Assembly: GCA_964016885.1 (NCBI GenBank)
Contig: OZ024740.1
Location: forward strand, 122,946,001-123,010,000
Reading direction: 5' to 3'
DNA: 64,000 bases
DNA from: Eledone cirrhosa
Taxonomy: Eukaryota
Shown: piece after piece, positions 12,091 through 64,000 of the stretch
Layout: each line of letters begins with the position of its first letter
Numbering within the stretch: position 1 is the stretch's first letter
The notes under the pieces: generated by a model
Database searches by the model: none
Told to the model about the DNA's origin: nothing
What the model saw: the letters and a program-made list of their open reading frames with translations, nothing else
Translations under genes and position numbers: made by a program

Positions 12091-12181
12091 GGAATAACAA
12101 GATATCCTTATAGGTAATCCATTTAGAGGTTGTGAGTACTCTGTATTGTGGATAGTTTTAACGTACAGCGTTGTTTGACTC
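12091..12181 (-). mobile_element. 90-bp terminal fragment of a (TA)n-inserting element fused to the 5' end of PLE-1
   Basis: Closely similar to 63884-63954; both copies directly follow a (TA)n run. Strand is inferred. Confidence 0.65.
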
Positions 12182-14551
12182 CCCCATCTCCCCAGTCACC
12201 CTAGATAAAGTGCTAACCTTTGCCCAGAACAACTCAGACCTAACCTCTGATGAAATTAGAATAATACTAGCTGCTAGGAGTACTATCATTAGATTCGAAA
12301 ATAGTTACTGGGAACGAACAGCTTCGATATCACAATGGGATCTAGCGACTCAGTACAGGTAACAGACATAGTTGGAATATATATAGCGCATAACTTACAT
12401 AAGGAATTTAATAACCTCCAAGGACGAATTTATAGAGATGACACACTGCTTTGAGCTAAAAACTTAAATAATCAAAACATGGAAAGCTTACAGAAAAACA
12501 TCAGAGTCTTCTTCAACAAACTAGGCCTAAGTATCACTTTCGAACTTAACTCTAAAAGAGCAAACTTCTTAGATGTAACACTCAACCTAAACACAGGACT
12601 AATAGAGCCCTTCCATAAAAATAACGATAATCTAGCCTACATAAGTTATAACTCAAACCACCCTCACTCCATAATTAACTCCATATCAGATAATATATCC
12701 CTCAGAATATCCCGCCTATCTTCTAACATAGAGATTTTTAATGAACACGCAGCAACAACAAACCTAACGACAGCTACACTACCCACACCTATAGAAATAA
12801 CAAACATAGAACTAAACATAGAAATAGACAATGAGCACCAGAAATAACTGAACCGAATACTAATACAGGGACCCCTAGGAACTATAGAATATCCAGAGAT
12901 AGGAAATACTTATGGTTCAATCAAATATTCAACTCTTCTATAAAAAACAAACTACCTTCTGCATTCTTTAAGCTGATTGACAAACACTTCCCTAAACTAC
13001 ACAAATACCATAGAATCTTTAGCAGAAAAACTATAAAACTATCTTACTCTACGGCAGCCAACATAGAATCACACATACATAAAATCAACTATAAAAGAAT
13101 CTCTAAAGAAAATAACCTACCAACATACACCATAGCACCAAATACAAAATGCAAACACATAACAACATCACAACCACACACAAATCAGGGTGCATCGCAA
13201 CAAAACATCAATAAGCCTAAATCTCAGCCCATCCATAACAACATACAAAACCGCAACGGAGAACCTGCACACAGGAAGGCCTCCAACTGTAACTGCCACC
13301 TGCCAGATAAGTTCCCACTACAAAATAGATGCCTGGAATCAAGTATGGTGTACCTGTGTACTATAAATTTGGGCAACTTAACATGGCACTACATAGTTTC
13401 CATGGCTGGGGAATTCAAAAAAGATGGTACGTACACAGACACTCTATGAAGAACCGTAGACTAGAGAATTCAACAACGCTGGCCAAGAAAATCTGGCAGC
13501 TTAAGGACACAAACCAAGAATATGCGATTAGTTGGTCGAAATTATCAGGAGCAAGGGAATGTCCCACTGCGGACTTTGCAATATGGAGCTGTTCCATATT
13601 TGAAAGTATGATAAAATGCTGCTTAACAGCAAAATAGAAAGATCAATTTTCTGTAGGCACAAAGCAGCTACCAAGTTCACAAATTTCAAACCAACATGAT
13701 TCGATCCAGTAATCTCAGAATTCAAGCTGAACCACCCGAATTGTAATGTACTGACTACATACCATCCCACTGTTATTAGCTGTGAACTGACCAACTGGTC
13801 ACTAGATCAACATCATAAATCTCCTAACCTTTCTTTCACTCCCTCTCCCTAAAGCCACATCACCCCCATTAAGATAAGACAATCAGCATGCTAGACATTT
13901 ACCACACACACACACATTTATCAACACTCTCCCTCTCAATATTTATTCTATATCTACCTATCTACTCCTTCCCCGTCCTTAGCCCTACCCCTTATGTTTC
14001 ATCCTCGTATCTCTTCCCCTCTCACTTAATTTTTAATTTATTATTTTTTATCTTTTATCTGTCATTTGTTACTATTTTTTTATTTTCTACTCTAACTCTT
14101 TGAGATTTGACTACCAGGTATGTATGCATGTATTTAATGTTGCTTTTCATATTAGTATTATCTCTACCCTCACCATGTCTTTAAACATACACTTACTCAC
14201 CACTGTAACTTTAATCACCACCACGACTCTTATCAGGAATCCTATTCTGTACTTATTTTTTTACTTATTTTTCATCTGTATCATCTTCATTCTAACTTCT
14301 TTACTTCTTAATTATTATCTATTATTATTGATGTTATGGTTTTGATTCTCCGCTGTATCTATATATACTAATGCCATATGTAAAACCTCCAGTATTCAGA
14401 TGATTTGATCAGAGGTAAACACTGTATTTAAGGTCGAGTGACACAACTTCGAATGATCAGCGGTTTTTACACTCACCTTATCAATGAAACAATTGTTAAT
14501 ACTTGAAATAAAACCCTTTTTGTACAACCGACCATGTTATTCATCAAACTT

Positions 14552-16687: not shown

Positions 16688-19600
16688 ATCATCATCATCA
16701 TTTTACGTCCACTTTTCCCTGCTTGCAAGGATGGGACGGTTCTTATTCAGCACAGCATCTCTCCACTTGTCACAGTCCTTCGTCATCTCCACTGTGAGCT
16801 TCAGCGAGCTGAGGTCTGTTCTCACCACCTCTGCCCATGTTTTTCGTGGTCTACCTCTACCACGTCTTCCTTAACTGGCATTTCCTGGCACTTCTTCACC
16901 CAACGGTCATCCTCCATGCGCATCACATGTCCATACCACCGCAATTTCCTCTCTCGCACACTACATTCTATCCCTCTCAGATACTGTTTCACTCTCAACA
17001 CATTCATGCTGGGTCGTTCACGCACATTGACATTACACATCCAACGGAGCATGCTTGCCTCATTTCTCTCCAGCCATCGCATATCCTCTGCAGTTGCTTC
17101 CCAAGTCTCACTACCATGCAGCATCGCGCTCCTCACACAGGCATCATATAACTGGCCTTTCGTATGCAGGGAGAAACCCTTCTTCGTCATTAGAGGAAGC
17201 AGCTCCCTAAACTTCTTCCAACCTGTCCTTATCCTAGATGCTATGGCCTCGGAACACCCCCCTCCCCAGCTAATCTGAACTCCTAGGTACTGGAAGCTAT
17301 CCACCACTTCTATAGCACCCGCCTGCATTTGAAAAATGTGTCTATCAATGCGACTTCTACTGTCTAATTTCCCTGTACATCTATTGCATACGTATTTCTC
17401 CCTACCTGTTAGTTTGACTGCTATCCCACACATCTCTTGTGTACCCAGGATCTGCATTGTGTGCATTTTATAGAATGTATGCCAGTTCCTTTTCTGCATA
17501 TCGAATATGGCCATTTCCCTGACGGAATCAGAATGTTGTCCTCTTTTCTACTCATCAACCCTTTTGTCTTAGCTAGGTTCACTCTCAGTCCTCTTGCTTC
17601 CAACTTCTGTTTCCATAGCCAGAATTTATTCTCTAGCTCCTCTACTGATTCTGCTATAAGAACCAGATCGTCAGCATAGAGAAGTTCCCATGGACAGCCA
17701 ATCTTAAAAGTTTCCTTAGGGACCACCAGATGACATATAGGGGTACCCTATCAAAGGCCTTCTGTAGTTCAACAAAAGCTAAGTATAGTGGCTTATTCTT
17801 CTCTAAGAACCTCTCTTGTAATTGTCTCACCAAGAAGAGGGTATCTGTTGTACTTTTCCCAGGCACAAAACCAAACTGCATCTCATCTAGTTTTACCCTT
17901 TCTCTAATCAGTTGCGCTAATATTCTCTCTGCCACTTTCATAACCTGATCCATCAGTTTTATACCCCTATAATCGCTCCTCTCCAGAGCATCCCCTTTAA
18001 TTTTGTAGCAATTTATGAGAATACTGCTGCACCAGTCTTTGGGTATGACACCACCATATATAGCCTGATTGATGATGCGTGCAACCAGTTTAGTGCCTAC
18101 GTCCCCTGATGCCATCAGCATCTCAGCAACTATCCCCGATGGTTCAGCAGCCTTACCATTTTTCATTTCCTTAATCGCCTCTTGGATCCTATATTCGTCA
18201 ATCTCAATAGCTGGTTCCTCTGTCGGATCTACTGAGGGTTATTTCGCTCTCTCCTATTCGTTGTCCACATTCCTCAGTCTCTTATAATGACATTTCCGGG
18301 CCTCTTTTTTCCGATCATTCGTGACACTAAGTACACCGGCATCATTCTGGACACATTTATCTCCAACAACATCCTGATTTGCATTGACATACTGCCTTGC
18401 AATGTGGAACACCGCACGCCTCTGATCTTCCGATCGCAGAACATTGGCAGACCTCCTACTCTCAGCCTCCCTGTGTGCTAAGTACACCTGACGTCTAGCT
18501 TCTCCCTTAGCGGCTGTATATCCTTCTCTACAGCCACCCTTTTTCCAAGCCTTCCATGCTAGTCTTTTGTCTCTAATGCCCCTATCTATTGTGCTGTTCC
18601 ACCACCCGGTCACTCTCTGTCTGGTTGGAGCTCTGCTCCAGCCACAAGTTTCATCAGTAGCTTGCAGTAAGTTGTCACGTAAGAAATTCCAGTTACTATC
18701 TATGTCATACGACTCTAAATCGTCTTCTTTTTCGTCATACACATCTTGAAGGGCTTTCCTAAATTTGTATTTTAGTGAAAGGTCTTTTAGCTTCCAGACC
18801 TCTCTTCACCACACCTTCCTGTATGTCGCATTCCATCTCTTGCTTACAGAGATATCACTAATGACTAACCTATGCTGTGGGGTGCATTCTTCCCCAGGGT
18901 GTGCCTTGGTATTTGACACCATCTGCTTGTCCCGCTGCCTAACTAGTAAGAAGTCAATCTAGCTTATGTGCTCGCCTGATTTGTAGGTTATTAGGTGGTT
19001 GGCAGGTTTCTGGAAGTTAGCGTTGCAAATAGTCAGTGTACTTGCATAAACAAATTCAAGAAGTCTCACTCCTTCTTCATTTCTTGAGCCGTAACTGTGC
19101 CTACCATGTACCCCACTGTAATCATCCTGGAGCTGTCTAACATGAAGTCACCTGCTAGCATAACGATGCCTCTGTCCTCTGTTATTGTGGCTGTTTGTAA
19201 AAGTTGCTCGTAAAAGCAGCCTTTCTCTTCTTTGCCTAGGCCTGCTTGGAGAGCATAGGCAGAGATGATTGTCAGTAGTCTCCTGCCTAAAACTAATCTA
19301 AGCTTAATTATTTGATTATTAACTCGAACTACCTCTATTGTCTTATTGATCCATCTCTCAGCCAGGAAAATCCCTACTCCCCTTAATCCATCATCTTTAC
19401 CTACCCAGAAAAACTTATAGATAAGATGTTTGCCTACGACTATTCTCGCAGAGGCACCTCTCCATCTCCTCTCTTGCACGCAGCACACATCCACATGCCT
19501 TCTCTCTAGCATCTCCGCTATTTCACCAGATCTACTCGTGAGAGTCCACCATTAAGTGTTGTAACTCTGAGATGCAACGTCTTCATATTTTGTTGTTCCT

Positions 19601-39365: not shown

Positions 39366-42300
39366 TTATTATTATTATTATTATTATTATTACAGTTGCA
39401 TTTATCTTGCTTTATGTTCATACGAGTTATCACCAAGTCACAACCATTGACCTCAAGAGACAACAAGGTCTGCCATGTTCAAGAAAGAACATACATACTC
39501 ACACATGCATCTTTAGGTGTTTAGACTTGTGATGTACTTATATTGACAGAATCTTCCTTAGTATATGGGCAGTTCCCATTAGTACTATCTTTTGTATTTC
39601 TCCTATACGCGGGTTTCCTGGGATTTGTGATAAGTAATCATTAGACCCCTTAGGTATCATTCCCAGAGCGCCTACAACCACTGGTATTGTTTTAGTTCTC
39701 AGTTTCCACATTTTTCCAATTTCTATCTCCAGGTCCTTATACTTGCTCAATTTTTCAAATGTTTTTAGAGATACATTCTTGTCTATTGGAACAGACATAT
39801 CAATTAGCAGGCATACCCTCTTTTGAAAGTCCTTCAATATTATATCAGGTCTATTTGCATCTATTTTTCGGTCTGTTTGGATGCTAAAGTTCCACAAGAT
39901 TGAGATGTGATCTTTTTTAAGTATGGGAGGTGGTTGATGCTCCCACCAATTCTTTTGATGGGGCAGGTCAAAATGCTTACACATTATCCAATGTATGTAT
40001 TGTGCAGCTCTGTCATGCCTGTTTAGGTATTCGGTTGGAGCTATAGGACTGCACATTGAAATTATATGGTCAATGGTCTCTGGTTGTTTTTTGCATACAC
40101 GGCATAATGGGCTGCACCCATTTTTTATTATGTTGGCTTGGTAATTTTTTGTTGGCAGACACTGATCTTGTGCCGATATAATCAGTCCTTCAGTCTCCGA
40201 TTTCAGTCCAGAGGATGCCAACCACTGATGGGTTAAAGTTTTGTCAACATCAGGATTGTTAGCTCGCTCTGGGTATTTTCCATACAGAGGCTTTTCTTGC
40301 CATTTCTTAGCCAGTTTCTGTAGCAGTTCTTTCTTTGCAGTTACTTTTACCTGCTTTGCTTTTTCTGTGTTTTCCATTTCAGCAGTAAATGGGACTTCTG
40401 AAATTTGTAGTCCATTACTGTATCTTTGTGCATCTTTTGTAATGGAATATGATCTTTTGATGCTTTCGTGTTTCAAAACGAGTTTGATCATCCAATCAGG
40501 TGATTCCCTTAGATATGTAGATAATCCAATTGTTGCAGTTTTCAACGCAATGTCTAACTGGATTAACCCACGTCCTCCTTCTTTCCTAGGGAGATATATT
40601 CTATCTATATCTGCCTTAGGGTGATGCATTCTGTGCATGGTTAAGAATTTTCAGATTTTTGTATCGAGCCTACGGATCTCTGTGCTTGACCAGTTGATGA
40701 CATTGTAACTGTAGGTTACTACTGGTATGGCAAGCGTGTTTATGGCATCGATCCTATTCCTTGCATTCAATTCCGTTCTTAAGATTGCTCTTACTCTGCG
40801 GTAACATTCCTTCCTTATCCTTTCCCTCATTGTCGAGTGCTTGATTCCGTCTCCTTCACAAACACCTAGATATTTGTAAGTTTTTTCTTGATCAAGTTCT
40901 CTTATCACGTTCCCCCGATCAAGATTAATGTCTGAACTCTTCAGCAGCTTTCCTCTGCTGAACGTTGCTTTGGCGCATTTATCTAGTCCAAACTTCATTT
41001 TAATGTCATCACTGAACTGCTTCACAGTGGATAATAGCCCTTGCAATTGTTCATCATTTTTTGCAAATAGTTTCAGGTCATCCATGTAGAACAGGTGATT
41101 AATGGTTTTGTCATAGACTTTATATCCATGTTTTGTTTCATTGAGCATTTTACTTAATGGTATAAGTGCGATGCAGAATAAAAGCGGTGATAAAGAGTCA
41201 CCCTGAAAAATTCCACAATTAATATTAACTTCTCCAGCTTCCAGTGATTTTGTTTCACTATTCAAAAGGAGTGTCGTTTTCCATGTCTTCTTACTGAATG
41301 ACAAAAACCTCCTGACAATGGGGGATATTTTGAAAATCTCTAAACATTTTTCAATCCAACTGTGTGGCAAACTATCGAATGCTTTTTTATAATCTATCCA
41401 AGCAATCGATAGATTTTTGTGTCTATTATGACAATCTTCCAGTATCATTTTGTTAACCAGAAACTGATCCTTACAGCCATATGAGCCTCATTTACACCCT
41501 TTCTGCTCAATGGGAAATAGGTCATTTGTTATCAGGTGGTCATATGTGTATTCAGCTAGGACTGATGTTAAAATTTTATACATTGTGGTCAAGCAAGTTA
41601 TCGGTCTGTAATTTTTGGGATTGTTTGTCTCATCATTCTTCGGAAGCAGGAATGTAATGCCGTTAACTAGCCATGATGGTATCTTTTCTGGCTCCTTAAC
41701 TATTTCATTGTAAAGTTGGGCTAACAGCTCATGAGACTCTGTGAAGGCATTTATCCAAAAGTTTTGTATTTTGTCTTTTCCTGGGGATTTCCATTTGCTG
41801 GTTTTTCTTAGAGCCAAGCGCAACTGTTCAACTGTTATATTTTCCCATGTTTGTTCCTCAAGGTGAGCTGTATCTTTCATTTGTCTGTCTATCCATGGGG
41901 CATGTATGTTATGAACTTTTTCTTCGGCCCAGATCTTTTCCCAGAATTTTTGCACTTCCTCCTTGGGTGGTATTGATTTAGCAGTTATTGTTGACTTACC
42001 AATTTTTCTGTAGAAGTTTCTTTGGTTGTTTTTGAACATATTATTGTCCATATAGAATCTAGATCGTTTTTCAAAGCGCCTTATACGAGCAGCTTTGGCC
42101 GACACTTTTTGCTTGATTATTTCTATCAGCATGTCTATGTCACATGTTGATTTTATACTGTACTCTTTTTTTCAATTTTCTAAGTTTAGTTTGTTTAACA
42201 TGTTCACCTACTTTATAGTTTGTTAAAATTTCTATGTCAGATCGGAGAAGGTTTATTTGGCGATTGATGTTCTCTTGCTAAGTAGATTTCTTGTGGGAAT

Positions 42301-54957: not shown

Positions 54958-56049
54958 TCTACCTGGAGTTGCAACTGATAGATAGTATTAGCAATTGGAA
55001 AGACCAATGGAAACATTGTTTCCTTGGTCCAATTTGACAAAAGTCAATCGACTCTCGATATATATGTACCTTTGCTACTCACTATACCCTATTTTTTAAT
55101 ATATGTTTATCAGATATTTTTACTTGATATAAGGGCATGCATTTTATTTTTAGAGGAAAATAGGGAGAATTTAGTCAGTAAATTTTATTTTTTTTAAATG
55201 AGAAGGGAGAAAATTTAAGTTGATTAATGAATAGGTGCAGGTATGTCAGTGTGAATTCACAAACACGTCTTTAGATTCAGTCTTTCTGTTGAGTGGAATT
55301 TAGTAGACAGAAACTCTGGAAGTTCATTAAATATATATATATATGTGTGTATGTATATAGGGGTGTTTATGAAAACATAGATATATACTATAAGTTTATA
55401 TACAATAAACCTATGAGTAGCCTTGATATCAAAGAAAGAAATATTTTTATAATGAAAATAAGTTATTTTTCTCTATTTTCCTCTGTGAATATATCATAGA
55501 ATGGTTGGTATGATTGAGAATGTTAGACAGTGCTGTTTCGACATTTGTTAATCTTTCATCAGACACTCTCTCAGCTTGTACTGGAGTCTATATAGAATTT
55601 TGGAAATGTTAATTTGCATATAGTGCAAACTTGGTTGATTATATTTAATTGGCAGTAACACTAAGACAGTTTTTAAGCACAGTAGGTTTGTATATAAAAA
55701 CATATACAAATATATTATAAATTTACATACAATAAACATATGGGTAGCTATGCAATCAAAGGAAAATATTTTTTGTAAGAAAAGAATTTATTTTTCTTTA
55801 TAGGTTTATATACAATACACATTTGAGTGTGTGTGTGTGTATGTATCCATGTTAGTGCTTTTACATAAAGTGCTAAAAAAATAAATTCAGGGCTTGAAAA
55901 AAATAAATACTGGGTTGATACGATCCACTAAATCCTTTCATGGTTGTTTCCTAGCATTGCTCCATTATGAAACTGATAAATGAGTAACATGATTTGATTT
56001 CAGAACAGATGAAACTAATATTGAAATTTATTTAATTCAATGCTCAACA

Positions 56050-59926: not shown

Positions 59927-61800
59927 TCAAGGATCAATTTCCTCCTCGTCTCTCTGCATGTGGAAGTCTGCTGTCCAGGTTGGTGGTCTACGACATCGTT
60001 GCGATCTCCGTAGTATTGGGGCAGAGCTCTGGGTTTCCTCTTCCTTGGAGTCCGTCGACACAGTGATTCTTCTTACATCCAGGACATGACGTGGTACCCC
60101 ATCCACGGACACATTGTTCTTTGAATTTACGGCCGTCACTGTTCCCCTTCCCCATTGAGATGTGCAACGTGCATCTGGGGGCTTAACCCAGACTTCTTCG
60201 TCCACCTGCACGAATGCACTCTCTTTCCCCACTGGCCGTTGTTGTGGCGTGCACGGGTGCCTCCACTCGTATTTGAATACTGCTCTGTGTGGCACCGATT
60301 CCTCGACCTGTCCAACCCGAGGGGACATGTTGTACCAGAACACTGCCTCTATTGGTGAGACATGGCCCCGCTCCGCCATTGCCTTGATCGTCCGGTGGTG
60401 TCGCTCCACGATTCCATTACCGCTCGGCCTGTGCGCCGCTCTGAAGAAACGGTTCACCTTCCATCCATCGAGCATCTCCCTCAGTGCCTCCGAGCGGAAC
60501 GCTGCGCCCTAGTCCATCAGCAGTTCGTCCACAGGGCCCCGCTCCAAGTACACCTCTCTCAACGTCCGCACGATTTCCTCGGCTGTTCCAGTCCTCATCT
60601 CCCTCCATATCGCCATTCGACCTGGTCCACAGTCAACCATCGAGAAGTACGTTCCCTGCCGGTAGTGCGTCACATCCACCGCTAATCGTTTCCAGTCGAG
60701 ATCCACCGGGAGGCTTCCCGTTTCGTGTACACCCGGGGCGGCATCAATGGACTGACATGGGACGCAGCCTCTAACCACTCCCTGAACACTGTGTCTGCTA
60801 ACGTCCGGGTCGATTCTCCTGGCTAGGAACAGGCTCCTATCCACCCCCATGTGGTGCATGTCATGCAACCCCTTCAGATCCGACTCGGTCAGCCGACACA
60901 CAGCAGCCATCTCATCCTCTACCTCCTCCGGCGCTCCCATCCAAGCTTTCTTCACCCTAGTTAATACGTCCGCCCTATTTTTATCTGAGGGCACGAAAAC
61001 TACGCTCAGCCTCAGGTCGAACTCGGTGGTCAGCTCTCCTAAAGTTCCCAGGCGGCGCTTTATCAGCATCTCCGCCGCGCCTCTCGTTCGCACTCTCTTC
61101 TCACTGGTGAGCACTGATCTTACCCATCCAAGAACAGTAGTCGAGTCGGTGCGTATCTCGATGGTGTGCAGCCCCCACCGCAGGGCGAGGTTGACCCCTC
61201 TCAACACCGCGTCCAGTTCGGCCACATTGATGTGATTGCAGTCGTCCTTCTTTCTAAGCCAGGCTGCATCCTCGACCTCAACACCTCCTATCTCCAACGT
61301 GACACCCAGCGCTATGCTGCTGGCATCGCACCACACGGTCCCGCTCTGTGATTTGGGAACATACCAGCGTCCCCGCACTGGGTCGTCGGCCTTCACCCTT
61401 CCAACGATCTCCTGCATCATGGCCACCGTCCTCTCTCCCACTCTGTCACTCCAAGTCACTCCTCCCGCTCGTCTCTTGACATAGCTGCATGCCGTCCGGA
61501 GCCACCCAGCGATCAGGTAGTGACCCACCAGCTTTCTGCTCACCGAGAAAAGCTCCCGCCTACTCATACTTGGGCCCAGTTCCGGAACTTCGTTTCCCCT
61601 CTGGAATACCTAAACGCCCGTCCTGTCTCGCCGTAGCCTAAGTCCCAGCGCGGCTCCTCCCTCCAATGCTTCTGACGGCTTCGCAGTCAGTCCGTACCCC
61701 TGTAAATGGCTCGTGACCTCCGCCGCCGACACCACCGACTCGTCCACTAAAATGTCGTCAATGTAGGAGTTAGTAGCCCTCTTTATCTTGTCAGCCTTCC
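59927..61800 (-). pseudogene. Ty3/gypsy-like pol, 3' half (RT C-term, RNase H, integrase), one frame with two TAG stops
   Basis: YIDD; RNase H WCDAS..HINVAELDA..IRTDS; HH..CC Zn motif; integrase AVDVTH..LMD..GNGIVERHH; RRSQR tail. The three ORFs are in frame, with stops at 61610-61612 and 60509-60511. Confidence 0.93.
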
Positions 61801-63178
61801 CCTGGTTCAACGGCATATGTAACAAGGAACATTGCCGTTTTATCCAATTCGACATCAACAATTACTACTCCTCCATCACTTTACCACTTCTCCTTAGAGC
61901 TATCAATTTCGCTAAAACACTCACAGTGGTTAAGGATTTCGAAGTTGATGTCACCCTCATTGCCCGAAAGTCGGTGATTAATTTCGACGACTCTATTTGG
62001 ATTAAAAAATCCAATAGTACCCCATTCAACGTGAGTATGGGCGCCAGTGATTCTGCGGAGGTTACTGCTCTTATCGGCCTTTTCCTTCTTTTCTCTATCA
62101 AGGACGAATTCCCCAACGCGGGCGGTGGTTTGTACCGTGACGATGGTCTTTTGACCATGACTAAGTGCGGACCTCGTGCTGGCGACAGGTTCAGAAAATA
62201 ACTCACAGCCTTCTTTAAAGGCTTCAACCTCTCTATACAGGTTGAGGCCAATCTCTCGGTCGTTAATTACCTCGACGTTACCCTCAACTTATTGAATGGG
62301 TTGTATTACCCGTATAGAAAGCCGAATGATACGCTTAATTACATAAGTAAGCATTCCAACCATCCTGCCAGCATAACCAAGAACCTGGTAAGAAACGTTT
62401 CGTTGAGGCTTTCCCGTCTTTCCACCAACGAGTGTATTTTCAACGACCATTCCACTTATCACAATGATGCTCTTGCTCGAAGTGGATTTGTCGATAAGGT
62501 AGCATATACAGAGTACGAAAATAGACCTAGAAGAATAGATCCCGTCGCATTTGTTGGTATAACCCACCATATAATATGGAGGTGGCCACACCATTAGCTA
62601 AGATCTTTCTTTCCCCTATTACGAAGCATTTTCCCCCTACACATAAATATAGTAAATTTTTTAATAGAAATACTATTAACATTTCTTACTCTACGACTCC
62701 TAACCTTGCACATAACATCACAGCTTCAAATTTAGCTAAACTATCTAGCCGTAGGAACACGTGCAGCCCTGTTGTTAGTACTAACTGTAATTGTAGGATC
62801 GGGTTGATTGCCCCCTATCCGGGAAATGCCTCTCTAGTAACATTGTCTATATGTGTATATGTGTACTTCATGTTTTGGTTGACTTACGTCTCCGAACATT
62901 CGTGTATTTACATGTAGGTATGTGTGTGCGCTTGTTATATACGTATTTATTTATATACGTTTATATAATTATTTATGTATTTGTATACACGCATACACAC
63001 ACACACATATTTATATGTGCGTGGTTTTGTTTACCTATGGTAAGTTTTTGCGTATGCTTGTGTATGTACGTTTTTGTTTGCGTGTATGTATTTATTTATT
63101 TCTATTACTTCTGTATTGTATTTATTTACTTTGTTCTTAACTCTGTAGCGGAGATTTATTCGTCTCCTAGTTAGAATT

Positions 63179-63441
63179 TTAGTCTACGTCTTCTGCTATA
63201 CCATTTACGTGGTTTTGTCTTTGCGTGCTATTGTTCTCCACGTTCCACATATGACGTATTATCTTCGTTTTTTTCGTTCATTGCCAGAGAACGTCTCTAT
63301 GCACCACCTAAGAGAACATTAGTCTACGACCTCTTTTATACCATAAACGTGGTTCTGTCTTTGCGCGTAATTGTTTTTCACTGCCCCTATTAATGACGTA
63401 TTATATTCGTTTTTTTCCCGTTGTTTACCAGCGAACGTTTC
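63179..63441 (+). repeat. Diverged ~140-bp direct repeat in the PLE-2 3' region
   Basis: ttagtctacg..tatacca..acgtggtt.tgtctttgcg..atgacgtattat.ttcgttttt occurs at ~63179 and ~63319. Confidence 0.85.
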
Positions 63442-63512
63442 CACGAACCAAAGTATCGTCTTCCTGCCTTCCTCCGGTTGCAACGTTTTTCGAAATATCC
63501 AGTTCTGCGTTT

Positions 63513-63588
63513 ACAGATTGACTTTGTTAGTTTCAGAAGATCCCGTTAAGGGTAAAAGCAGCGATTACTTGCTTAAACTTTAATCTGT
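63513..63588 (+). ncRNA. Type I hammerhead-ribozyme-like motif (variant core, probably mutated) in the PLE-2 3' end
   Basis: Stem I AGTTT(63529-33)/AAACT(63575-79) plus distal ACAGATT/AATCTGT; core CAGAAGA; stem II CCC-GTTAA-GGG; AAA in place of GAA; stem III AGCA/TGCT; T at the cleavage position. Confidence 0.62.
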
Positions 63589-63689
63589 TATTTTAATAAA
63601 TATTTTCTCTACGGTTCTTATATATTTTATATATATTTATCCTTATCGAGCCCTCTTTGGATTTTAGTCTTCAAATTTATTATTATTAC

Positions 63690-63723
<34 letters not shown>

Positions 63724-63883
63724 AGGATAAGGAACAAGGATTCAGTGTTGCATCATAATATATTTAACATATTACATATGTTTCTCTATCGATCAGCTCG
63801 AGGCAAAGTCTATAATAGATTGAACCTGACACTTTTAATTGATATATATATATATATATATATGGGATAACAAGTTAGCGTTT

Positions 63884-64000
63884 TAGGTAATCCAGTTAGA
63901 GGTTGTGAGTACTCTGTAATATGGATAGTTTTAACGTACGGCGTTGTTTGACTCAACAAGAGGTTTCCTTAGTTAGGTAGCGAGTTTGCGAGAATTCTTA
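63884..64000 (-). mobile_element. Terminus of a (TA)n-inserting element (possibly another PLE) running off the window
   Basis: Homologous to 12091-12181; abuts the (TA)n run at 63842-63883. Strand is inferred. Confidence 0.6.

What the first reader, a model, noticed from the sequence alone, without database searches (positions are those of the whole stretch)
63513..63600. Second, sequence-unrelated PLE carries the same variant hammerhead core
Seen: PLE-2 has a 3' region with no evident nucleotide similarity to PLE-1. Yet at the equivalent position before AATAAA it folds into stem I (with a distal 7-bp helix), CAGAAGA, U-[CCC/GGG]-U, AAA, stem III AGCA/UGCU and U17. All helices differ in sequence from PLE-1 while pairing and the unusual core are retained, which is the pattern expected of a conserved structured RNA. 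G12 appears as A in this copy, which should inactivate it (inference). Together the two motifs point to a distinct hammerhead subtype in these microsatellite-associated PLEs.
Basis: partly seen in the sequence, partly recalled or inferred. Interest (0 to 1): 0.75.

Follow-up and report, generated by a model that had tools for sequence, protein, structure and literature searches.

The report
Retrotransposon hammerhead with fixed U4A change
This is a mutated copy of a hammerhead-ribozyme motif at the end of a Penelope-like jumping gene of a known group; about 15,000 sister copies carry adenine where published hammerheads have uridine, which likely slows self-cutting, and the neighbouring element's family does not share that letter.

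Summary
The motif is at the stated coordinates. It is the type I hammerhead in the terminal repeat of a young Hydra-clade Penelope-like element (PLE). G12A is private to this copy: 14,981 of 15,264 matches have G12. U4A is family-wide (15,264 against 132) and older than the current burst: an old subfamily found by flank alone has A4 in 25 of 27 copies. Between old and young consensus, 0 of 50 core and paired positions changed, against 9 of 26 loop and 53 of 160 flank positions.

The 'shared subtype' reading fails. PLE-1's family has C4 (33 of 42), so its A is a private mutation, and non-U4 cores are not one clade (AU p 0.00016). What the two motifs share (U10.1·U11.1, U17, 3' position, (TA)n targets) is already in Craig et al. 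2021 File S2. Only the fixed U4A was not found in print, and Lünse et al. could not be read.

Most likely a slow, possibly protein-assisted ribozyme; cleavage is untested. The scan noted this family before on other DNA (e1-10313543).

The parts
63513..63588 (+). Type I hammerhead motif of the PLE-2 terminal repeat: distal helix, internal loop, stem I, core, U·U-closed stem II, stem III, U17
   Evidence: family alignment
63535..63535 (+). A4: family-fixed replacement of the conserved U4
   Evidence: 15,264 A against 132 non-A exact matches; old subfamily 25 of 27
63554..63554 (+). Position 12: A in this copy, G in the family; predicted to inactivate this copy
   Evidence: 283 of 15,264 non-G; 41 of 43 aligned rows G
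63574..63574 (+). U17, predicted cleavage-site nucleotide
   Evidence: position inferred from hammerhead numbering
61800..62857 (+). 5'-truncated, frameshifted RT-to-linker part of the Hydra-clade PLE ORF; about 620 nt (most of the endonuclease and the start of the 3' UTR) are deleted after 62857
62852..63689 (+). 3' UTR and terminal repeat, with a tail of about 115 nt after U17
   Evidence: 94% to full copy L141; end classes
63690..63723 (+). (TA)n at the insertion end
14391..14503 (+). PLE-1 hammerhead (comparison motif): long stem II, palindromic stem III; A at position 4 (14398) is private, family has C
63864..64000 (-). 3' tail of another PLE-1-family copy that continues past the window end and carries CCGAUGA
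   Evidence: L151

Best explanation
The motif is the type I hammerhead fold in the terminal repeat of a Hydra-clade Penelope-like retrotransposon, with family-fixed A4, and it likely acts as an attenuated, possibly protein-assisted self-cleaving RNA; this window copy is predicted to be dead because of a private G12A. Shown: position in both terminal repeats of tandem copies (about 215 nt before the ORF start frame and about 900 nt after the ORF), fixation of A4 over three subfamilies, and selective conservation of core and paired positions. Inferred: the element is transcribed from the upstream repeat; the fold forms and cuts after U17 slowly, because U4A removes the U4 contact, U10.1·U11.1 and U17 are suboptimal, and A4 extends a competing UUUCA/UGAAA helix that hides G12-A14. 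Slow cutting would leave uncut RNA, with the downstream tail needed to start reverse transcription, while still trimming some tandem or read-through transcripts. A stable stem III, an extended stem I, an A at the end of loop II and U at 1.7 would allow a monomeric, tertiary-stabilised fold.
For: Hydra membership: 713-aa ORF with DKT, CxCX5C and C-terminal endonuclease (definitions). Motif upstream of the ORF in the same orientation in 7 of 20 long loci and downstream in 19 of 20. A4 15,264 against 132. Old subfamily found by flank only, 10.4% from its own consensus: A4 25, C3 27, G5 25, A6 25, G8 25, A9 26, G12 26, A13 27, A14 27 of 27. Old against young consensus: 0 of 50 core/paired changes, 9 of 26 in loops (Fisher p 2e-5), 53 of 160 in flank (p 5e-8). 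No canonical CUGA or CCGA hammerhead elsewhere in the full element. Predicted C3-G12 mispairing 0.40 with A4 against 0.02 with U4. Literature: U10.1·U11.1 is natural and active, and U4C is natural with lower activity (PMC3088659); a PLE hammerhead needed its protein to cleave (PMC11167929); U1.7 to loop II A contact (PMC11875169).
Against: No cleavage was measured. In a type III hammerhead all single mutants of CUGA had low activity and no second change rescued them except the 3-8 swap (PMC9901934). Hammerhead-dead mutants did not block insertion in vitro for another PLE, so catalysis may be dispensable. No two-sided compensatory change occurs within the A4 lineage, only one C-to-U change that keeps G·U. 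The hammerhead fold is not the predicted minimum-energy structure. Only 12 core positions are unpaired in the hammerhead fold and six of them pair in the competing fold, so the core alone gives weaker support. The old-young test rests on one pair of consensus sequences, and the tail just downstream is also well conserved. 5' junctions show no clear peak at the predicted cut.
Confidence: 0.58

Rival explanations
1. Non-cleaving relic: U4A ended catalysis, and the fold is kept as a binding site for the RT/endonuclease protein, a promoter part or a reverse-transcription start signal.
For: CUGA mutants are near-inactive in vitro; dead hammerheads do not block insertion in vitro; the competing fold is favoured; the neighbouring tail is also conserved; no junction peak at U17.
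Against: All catalytic and junction positions (G5, A6, C3-G8, A9, G12-A14, A15.1-U16.1, H17) stayed unchanged while loops and flank drifted by about a third. N7, the one free core position, did change.
Confidence: 0.3
2. Fully active new core: A4 is compensated by the U·U mismatch, tertiary contacts or the protein, and the ribozyme is as fast as canonical ones.
For: Long persistence and very high copy number; stable stem III and extended stem I; Perreault et al. propose that tertiary contacts offset variant cores.
Against: No partner change tracks A4: N7 is U in the old and A in the young subfamily, and U·U occurs with U4 in tens of thousands of motifs and in 14 of 26 published Hydra rows.
Confidence: 0.09
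3. One subtype shared by PLE-1 and PLE-2 and defined by a CAGA core.
For: Both window copies read CAGA-N-GA-U ... U-(G)AAA ... UU.
Against: PLE-1 family is C4 (33 of 42); its sister family C4 in 24 of 30; closer relatives of each have U4; one clade rejected, p-AU 0.00016.
Confidence: 0.03

Closest known systems
Hydra-clade PLE hammerheads (Craig et al. 2021, PMC8557442, section 11 and File S2; e.g. Hydra-1_Ajap, Hydra-1_Crog, Penelope-3_HM, Hydra-1_Obim)
   Same: Type I, near the 3' end of (TA)n-inserting elements; U after A9 and U before G12 in 14 of 26 rows; U17 in 10 of 26; both in 8. Host protein has the same DKT and CxCX5C motifs.
   Different: All 26 Hydra rows have CUGA; here A4 is fixed. 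Stem III is a 4-5 bp hairpin with a 7-9 nt loop, not a near-palindromic stub, and stem I has a distal helix.
Minimal hammerheads of metazoan PLEs (Cervera and de la Pena 2014, PMC4209133)
   Same: In PLE terminal repeats; extra nucleotide after A9; core variation known (U3-A8); low activity in vitro.
   Different: Their descriptor requires CUGANGA and they note a conserved G10.1-C11.1 pair and a palindromic stem III for dimers; this motif has A4, U·U and a monomer-type stem III.
Natural hammerhead core variants (Perreault et al. 2011, PMC3088659)
   Same: U10.1·U11.1 and a viroid U4C are natural and weakly active.
   Different: U4A does not occur in the main text (0 hits; figures not seen); those variants are rare single cases, not fixed in over 15,000 copies.
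PAc hammerhead of an anole Poseidon PLE (Frangione et al. 2024 (author name recalled), PMC11167929)
   Same: PLE terminal-repeat hammerhead upstream of the tail; cleaves only with the element's protein.
   Different: Different clade; C3 and G8 conserved, no position-4 change mentioned in the passages read; overlaps the start codon.

Membership tests
Hammerhead ribozyme, type I | Three helices around the core, open ends in stem I | tested here: met
   0 of 5000 shuffles; 0 of 50 constrained changes
Hammerhead ribozyme, type I | C3, G5, A6, G8, A9, G12, A13, A14, A15.1-U16.1, H17 | tested here: met
   family and old subfamily; not met by the window copy (G12A)
Hammerhead ribozyme, type I | U4 (Y in CYGANGA descriptors) | tested here: not met
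   A4 in 15,264 against 132 matches
Hammerhead ribozyme, type I | G10.1-C11.1 pair | tested here: not met
   U·U; a known natural variant
Hammerhead ribozyme, type I | Compensatory base changes in helices | tested here: inconclusive
   none two-sided within the A4 lineage; helices differ while pairing holds across U4 and C4 families
Hammerhead ribozyme, type I | Self-cleavage after H17 | not testable with these tools
   no assay; junction test inconclusive
Hydra clade of Penelope-like elements | Single ORF, RT with DKT motif, RWK-like N-terminal motif | tested here: met
   713-aa frame with HSDKT and LLWR (RWR in window-family copy L144); by-eye match to Hydra proteins; Pfam, NCBIfam and PDB gave no hit
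Hydra clade of Penelope-like elements | CxCX5C linker before a C-terminal endonuclease | tested here: met
   CNCRNRADC followed by IVY...YIG
Hydra clade of Penelope-like elements | (TA)n insertion, tandem and inverted terminal repeats | tested here: met
Hydra clade of Penelope-like elements | Placement in a tree with published Hydra, Neptune and Nematis proteins | not tested
   the tree holds only families of this genome and two metagenome loci
Minimal dimeric PLE hammerhead | Short palindromic stem III | tested here: not met
   PLE-2 has a 4-5 bp non-palindromic hairpin; PLE-1 meets it

The most novel reading that the evidence does not exclude
A natural hammerhead that cleaves with A at position 4, kept for a long time in a very successful retrotransposon lineage, where A4 doubles as a switch: it locks the catalytic GAAA strand in an inhibitory helix until the element's protein or transcript context releases it. 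Together with independently fixed C4 and U3-A8 cores in sister families, PLE hammerheads would be tuned for slow, regulated cutting.
Probability: 0.22. Interest if true: 0.7.

Novelty: new variant of a known kind. Interest (0 to 1): 0.42.

Why it matters
U4 is treated as near-invariant, and CUGANGA or CYGANGA descriptors miss this motif, so over 15,000 hammerhead-like RNAs in one genome go uncounted. The role of PLE hammerheads is an open question (processing, dispensable, or parasitic). One genome with related young families carrying U4, C4, A4 and U3-A8 cores gives a ready natural series to test whether cleavage rate matters for transposition. The gain is limited: it is one base in a known element-ribozyme pairing, and activity is unproven.

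Tried and rejected
Rfam scans found no hammerhead. Pfam, NCBIfam and PDB searches of the ORF were blank. 5'-junction test at the predicted cut: counted by eye, about 39 of the first 100 of 751 matches were junctions at the cut against about 21 of 100 of 656 at a control site 4 nt upstream; 11 of the 39 are inversions through a 5-nt microhomology and the site begins with AAA, so this is inconclusive. Expression: no RNA holder listed. Other organisms: contigs of 8 of 20 listed runs were laid and none shows another letter at A4; only X8 is deep, the others may be trace DNA, so this is weak. A loop II to internal-loop pseudoknot fits the young subfamily but not the old one: rejected. A 4-7 covariation: rejected (A4 with U7 and with A7). 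An abundant repeat with CAGAAGA...GAAAC has no stem I and C at 16.1: not a second A4 hammerhead. CAGA hits are by eye scattered mutants of U4 families. Metagenome scan: 5 loci, 2 with a readable motif (CUGA; U3-A8), none A4. One search had a mis-set gap and caught only 19 matches (18 CCGA, 1 CTGA). Four ORF rows without an assigned hammerhead were dropped from the tree. Neptune and Naiad membership were considered and rejected on motifs. Papers not held: Lünse et al. (PMC5785218) and Nelson and Uhlenbeck 2008.

Full report
Observation. The described elements are present: distal helix 63513-63519/63582-63588, stem I 63529-63533/63575-63579, CAGAAGA at 63534, U-[CCC/GGG]-U, A at position 12 (63554), stem III AGCA/UGCU, U17 at 63574 and AATAAA at 63595. 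For the family form, 0 of 5000 dinucleotide shuffles of the last 300 nt fit a type I descriptor with free position 4. Energy folding alone gives no support: z -0.24 for the window stretch, and the hammerhead fold lies about 6 kcal/mol above the predicted minimum. Rfam lists no hammerhead.

The host element. The window lies in a 3.0-Gb genome. PLE-2 is a 5'-truncated copy with an internal deletion of about 620 nt. Its family is young (29 copies 3.2% from consensus; these were the best matches, so the figure is a lower bound) and has 713-aa open frames. The protein has DKT, CNCRNRADC and a C-terminal endonuclease, and the copies end in (TA)n. These match the Hydra clade as defined in PMC8557442 section 11 and resemble its proteins by eye. 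In 20 long loci the motif lies about 900 nt after the ORF in most (19 have a downstream copy) and, in 7 tandem arrangements, about 215 nt before it. So it is part of the terminal repeat. The full element has no CUGA or CCGA hammerhead.

Position 12 and position 4. Of 15,264 exact 32-mer matches with A4, 283 lack G12: the window's G12A is a private, post-insertion change. Only 132 matches have another base at position 4, split among G, U and C in the 100 listed, as expected of random decay. An old subfamily retrieved with upstream flank only (30 of 40 matches fetched; 27 used after dropping 3 that lack the motif) is 10.4% from its own consensus and has A4 in 25, G12 in 26 and C3, A13 and A14 in 27 of 27. 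Its protein is 68% identical to PLE-2's. Between old and young consensus, 0 of 50 core or paired positions differ, against 9 of 26 loop positions including N7 (p 2e-5) and 53 of 160 flank positions (p 5e-8). This is purifying selection on the hammerhead-shaped positions in a lineage that already had A4. Limits: one comparison, no two-sided compensatory change, and the tail is conserved too.

The PLE-1 comparison. PLE-1's family reads CCGAUGA: C4 in 33 of 42 copies, with A4 only in the window copy. A sister family found by downstream sequence has C4 in 24 of 30. A third group has CCGA in 28 of 29 copies picked partly by a CCGA pattern and 18 of 19 in a pattern with free position 4; a CCGA pattern gives 12,677 matches against 1,256 for the reversed control. 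Close relatives have U4: 28 of 30 in one family, with a CCGA subfamily, and 31 of 31 in another. On a 15-row protein tree position 4 changes at least 3 times and the non-U4 rows are rejected as one clade (p-AU 0.00016; ORF-to-motif links are by adjacency, and several rows are partial). The A4 lineage groups (SH-aLRT 90) with a U4 family and a U3-A8 family. Genome-wide, the U·U motif with a short stem III occurs 86,480 times with U4 (control 155) and 2,384 times without (control 765); this pattern does not include PLE-2 itself.

What is known. File S2 of PMC8557442 (supplement parts 1-2 and searches read) lists 26 Hydra rows. Fourteen have U after A9 and U before G12, 10 have U17, and all have CUGA. 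PMC3088659 (section 8 and passages) reports U10.1·U11.1 as natural and active, U4C as a weak viroid variant, and a U4 contact with the A6-N7 phosphate. PMC4209133 (parts 1-2 of 4; supplement file 2 searched, file 1 not searchable) reports PLE hammerheads with low activity and a U3-A8 variant. PMC9901934 (passages) found all CUGA single mutants weak in a type III hammerhead. PMC11167929 (passages) found a PLE hammerhead that needs its protein and is dispensable for insertion in vitro. PMC13481778 (passages) uses CYGANGA, so C4 is tolerated in some descriptors. PMC11875169 (passages) describes the U1.7 contact. Also seen without bearing: PMC6765202, PMC7151607 and PMC11014351 (passages) and bioRxiv 2026.07.22.740005 (part 1 of 5; supplements closed). 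I found no U4A report: one search returned 0 papers, and searches gave no relevant listing. Lünse et al., the largest survey of PLE hammerhead variants (content recalled, not read), could hold one.

Mechanism. Inferred: RNA made from the upstream repeat folds the motif and cuts after U17, slowly. U4A should remove the U4 contact; U·U at 10.1·11.1 is suboptimal, as is U17 (recalled); and A4 extends a UUUCA/UGAAA helix, raising predicted C3-G12 mispairing from 0.02 to 0.40. A stable stem III, a distal stem I helix, A as last base of loop II and U at 1.7 are present in both subfamilies and would allow a monomer fold. Slow cutting suits an element whose uncut RNA is the template. A test for 5' junctions at the cut was inconclusive, and no RNA run was listed. 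The main rival is a non-cleaving structure kept for protein binding or priming (0.30).

Verdict. A real, selected hammerhead-type structure in a known element class. The fixed, old U4A is the part not found in print. Earlier scan notes reached similar readings for this family and for C4; they are not independent evidence and were read after my reading was set. New variant of a known kind; interest 0.42.

Noticed in passing
L337 3' region, L338, L339; L398:2400: A Hydra family with a U3-A8 hammerhead core (UUGACAA) and a long stem II; a metagenome Hydra locus has U3-A8 with U·U.
   Followed up: partly
L335:6322-6450; L373-L397: Very young Hydra family (40 of 40 scored copies 100% identical over 166 nt) with CUGAAGA. 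The strand after C17 does not pair with the 5' stem I strand but is complementary to GGUAUU in loop II: a possible pseudoknotted stem I.
   Followed up: no
L298-L327: Large group of C4 (CCGA) hammerheads in Hydra subfamilies in which 10.1·11.1 is a variable mismatch (A·G, C·A, C·U, U·A), kept despite CpG decay.
   Followed up: partly
window 55504-55570 (-): Isolated CUGAUGA...GAAAC motif with a short stem III and an imperfect stem I; probably a decayed minimal hammerhead.
   Followed up: no
window 59927-61800 (-): Gypsy-like pol (RNase H/integrase) frames abutting the 5' end of PLE-2.
   Followed up: no
window 12091-12180: Inverted 3' tail of the PLE-1 family at the 5' end of PLE-1, the usual PLE inversion.
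   Followed up: partly
L091-L093, L180-L185; C1:5388706-5392670: Tandem retrozyme-like arrays (units of about 310 and 430 nt) with U-mismatch type I hammerheads; six matches in one array at C1:53.36 Mb carry CAGA.
   Followed up: no
L062:1658 and thousands of places: Abundant repeat with CAGAAGA...GAAACCUAC and a hairpin, lacking stem I and U16.1; identity unknown.
   Followed up: partly
window 39538-42171 (-), 16822-19551 (-): Decayed non-LTR retrotransposon (RTE/LINE-like, by motif, recalled) reading frames.
   Followed up: no
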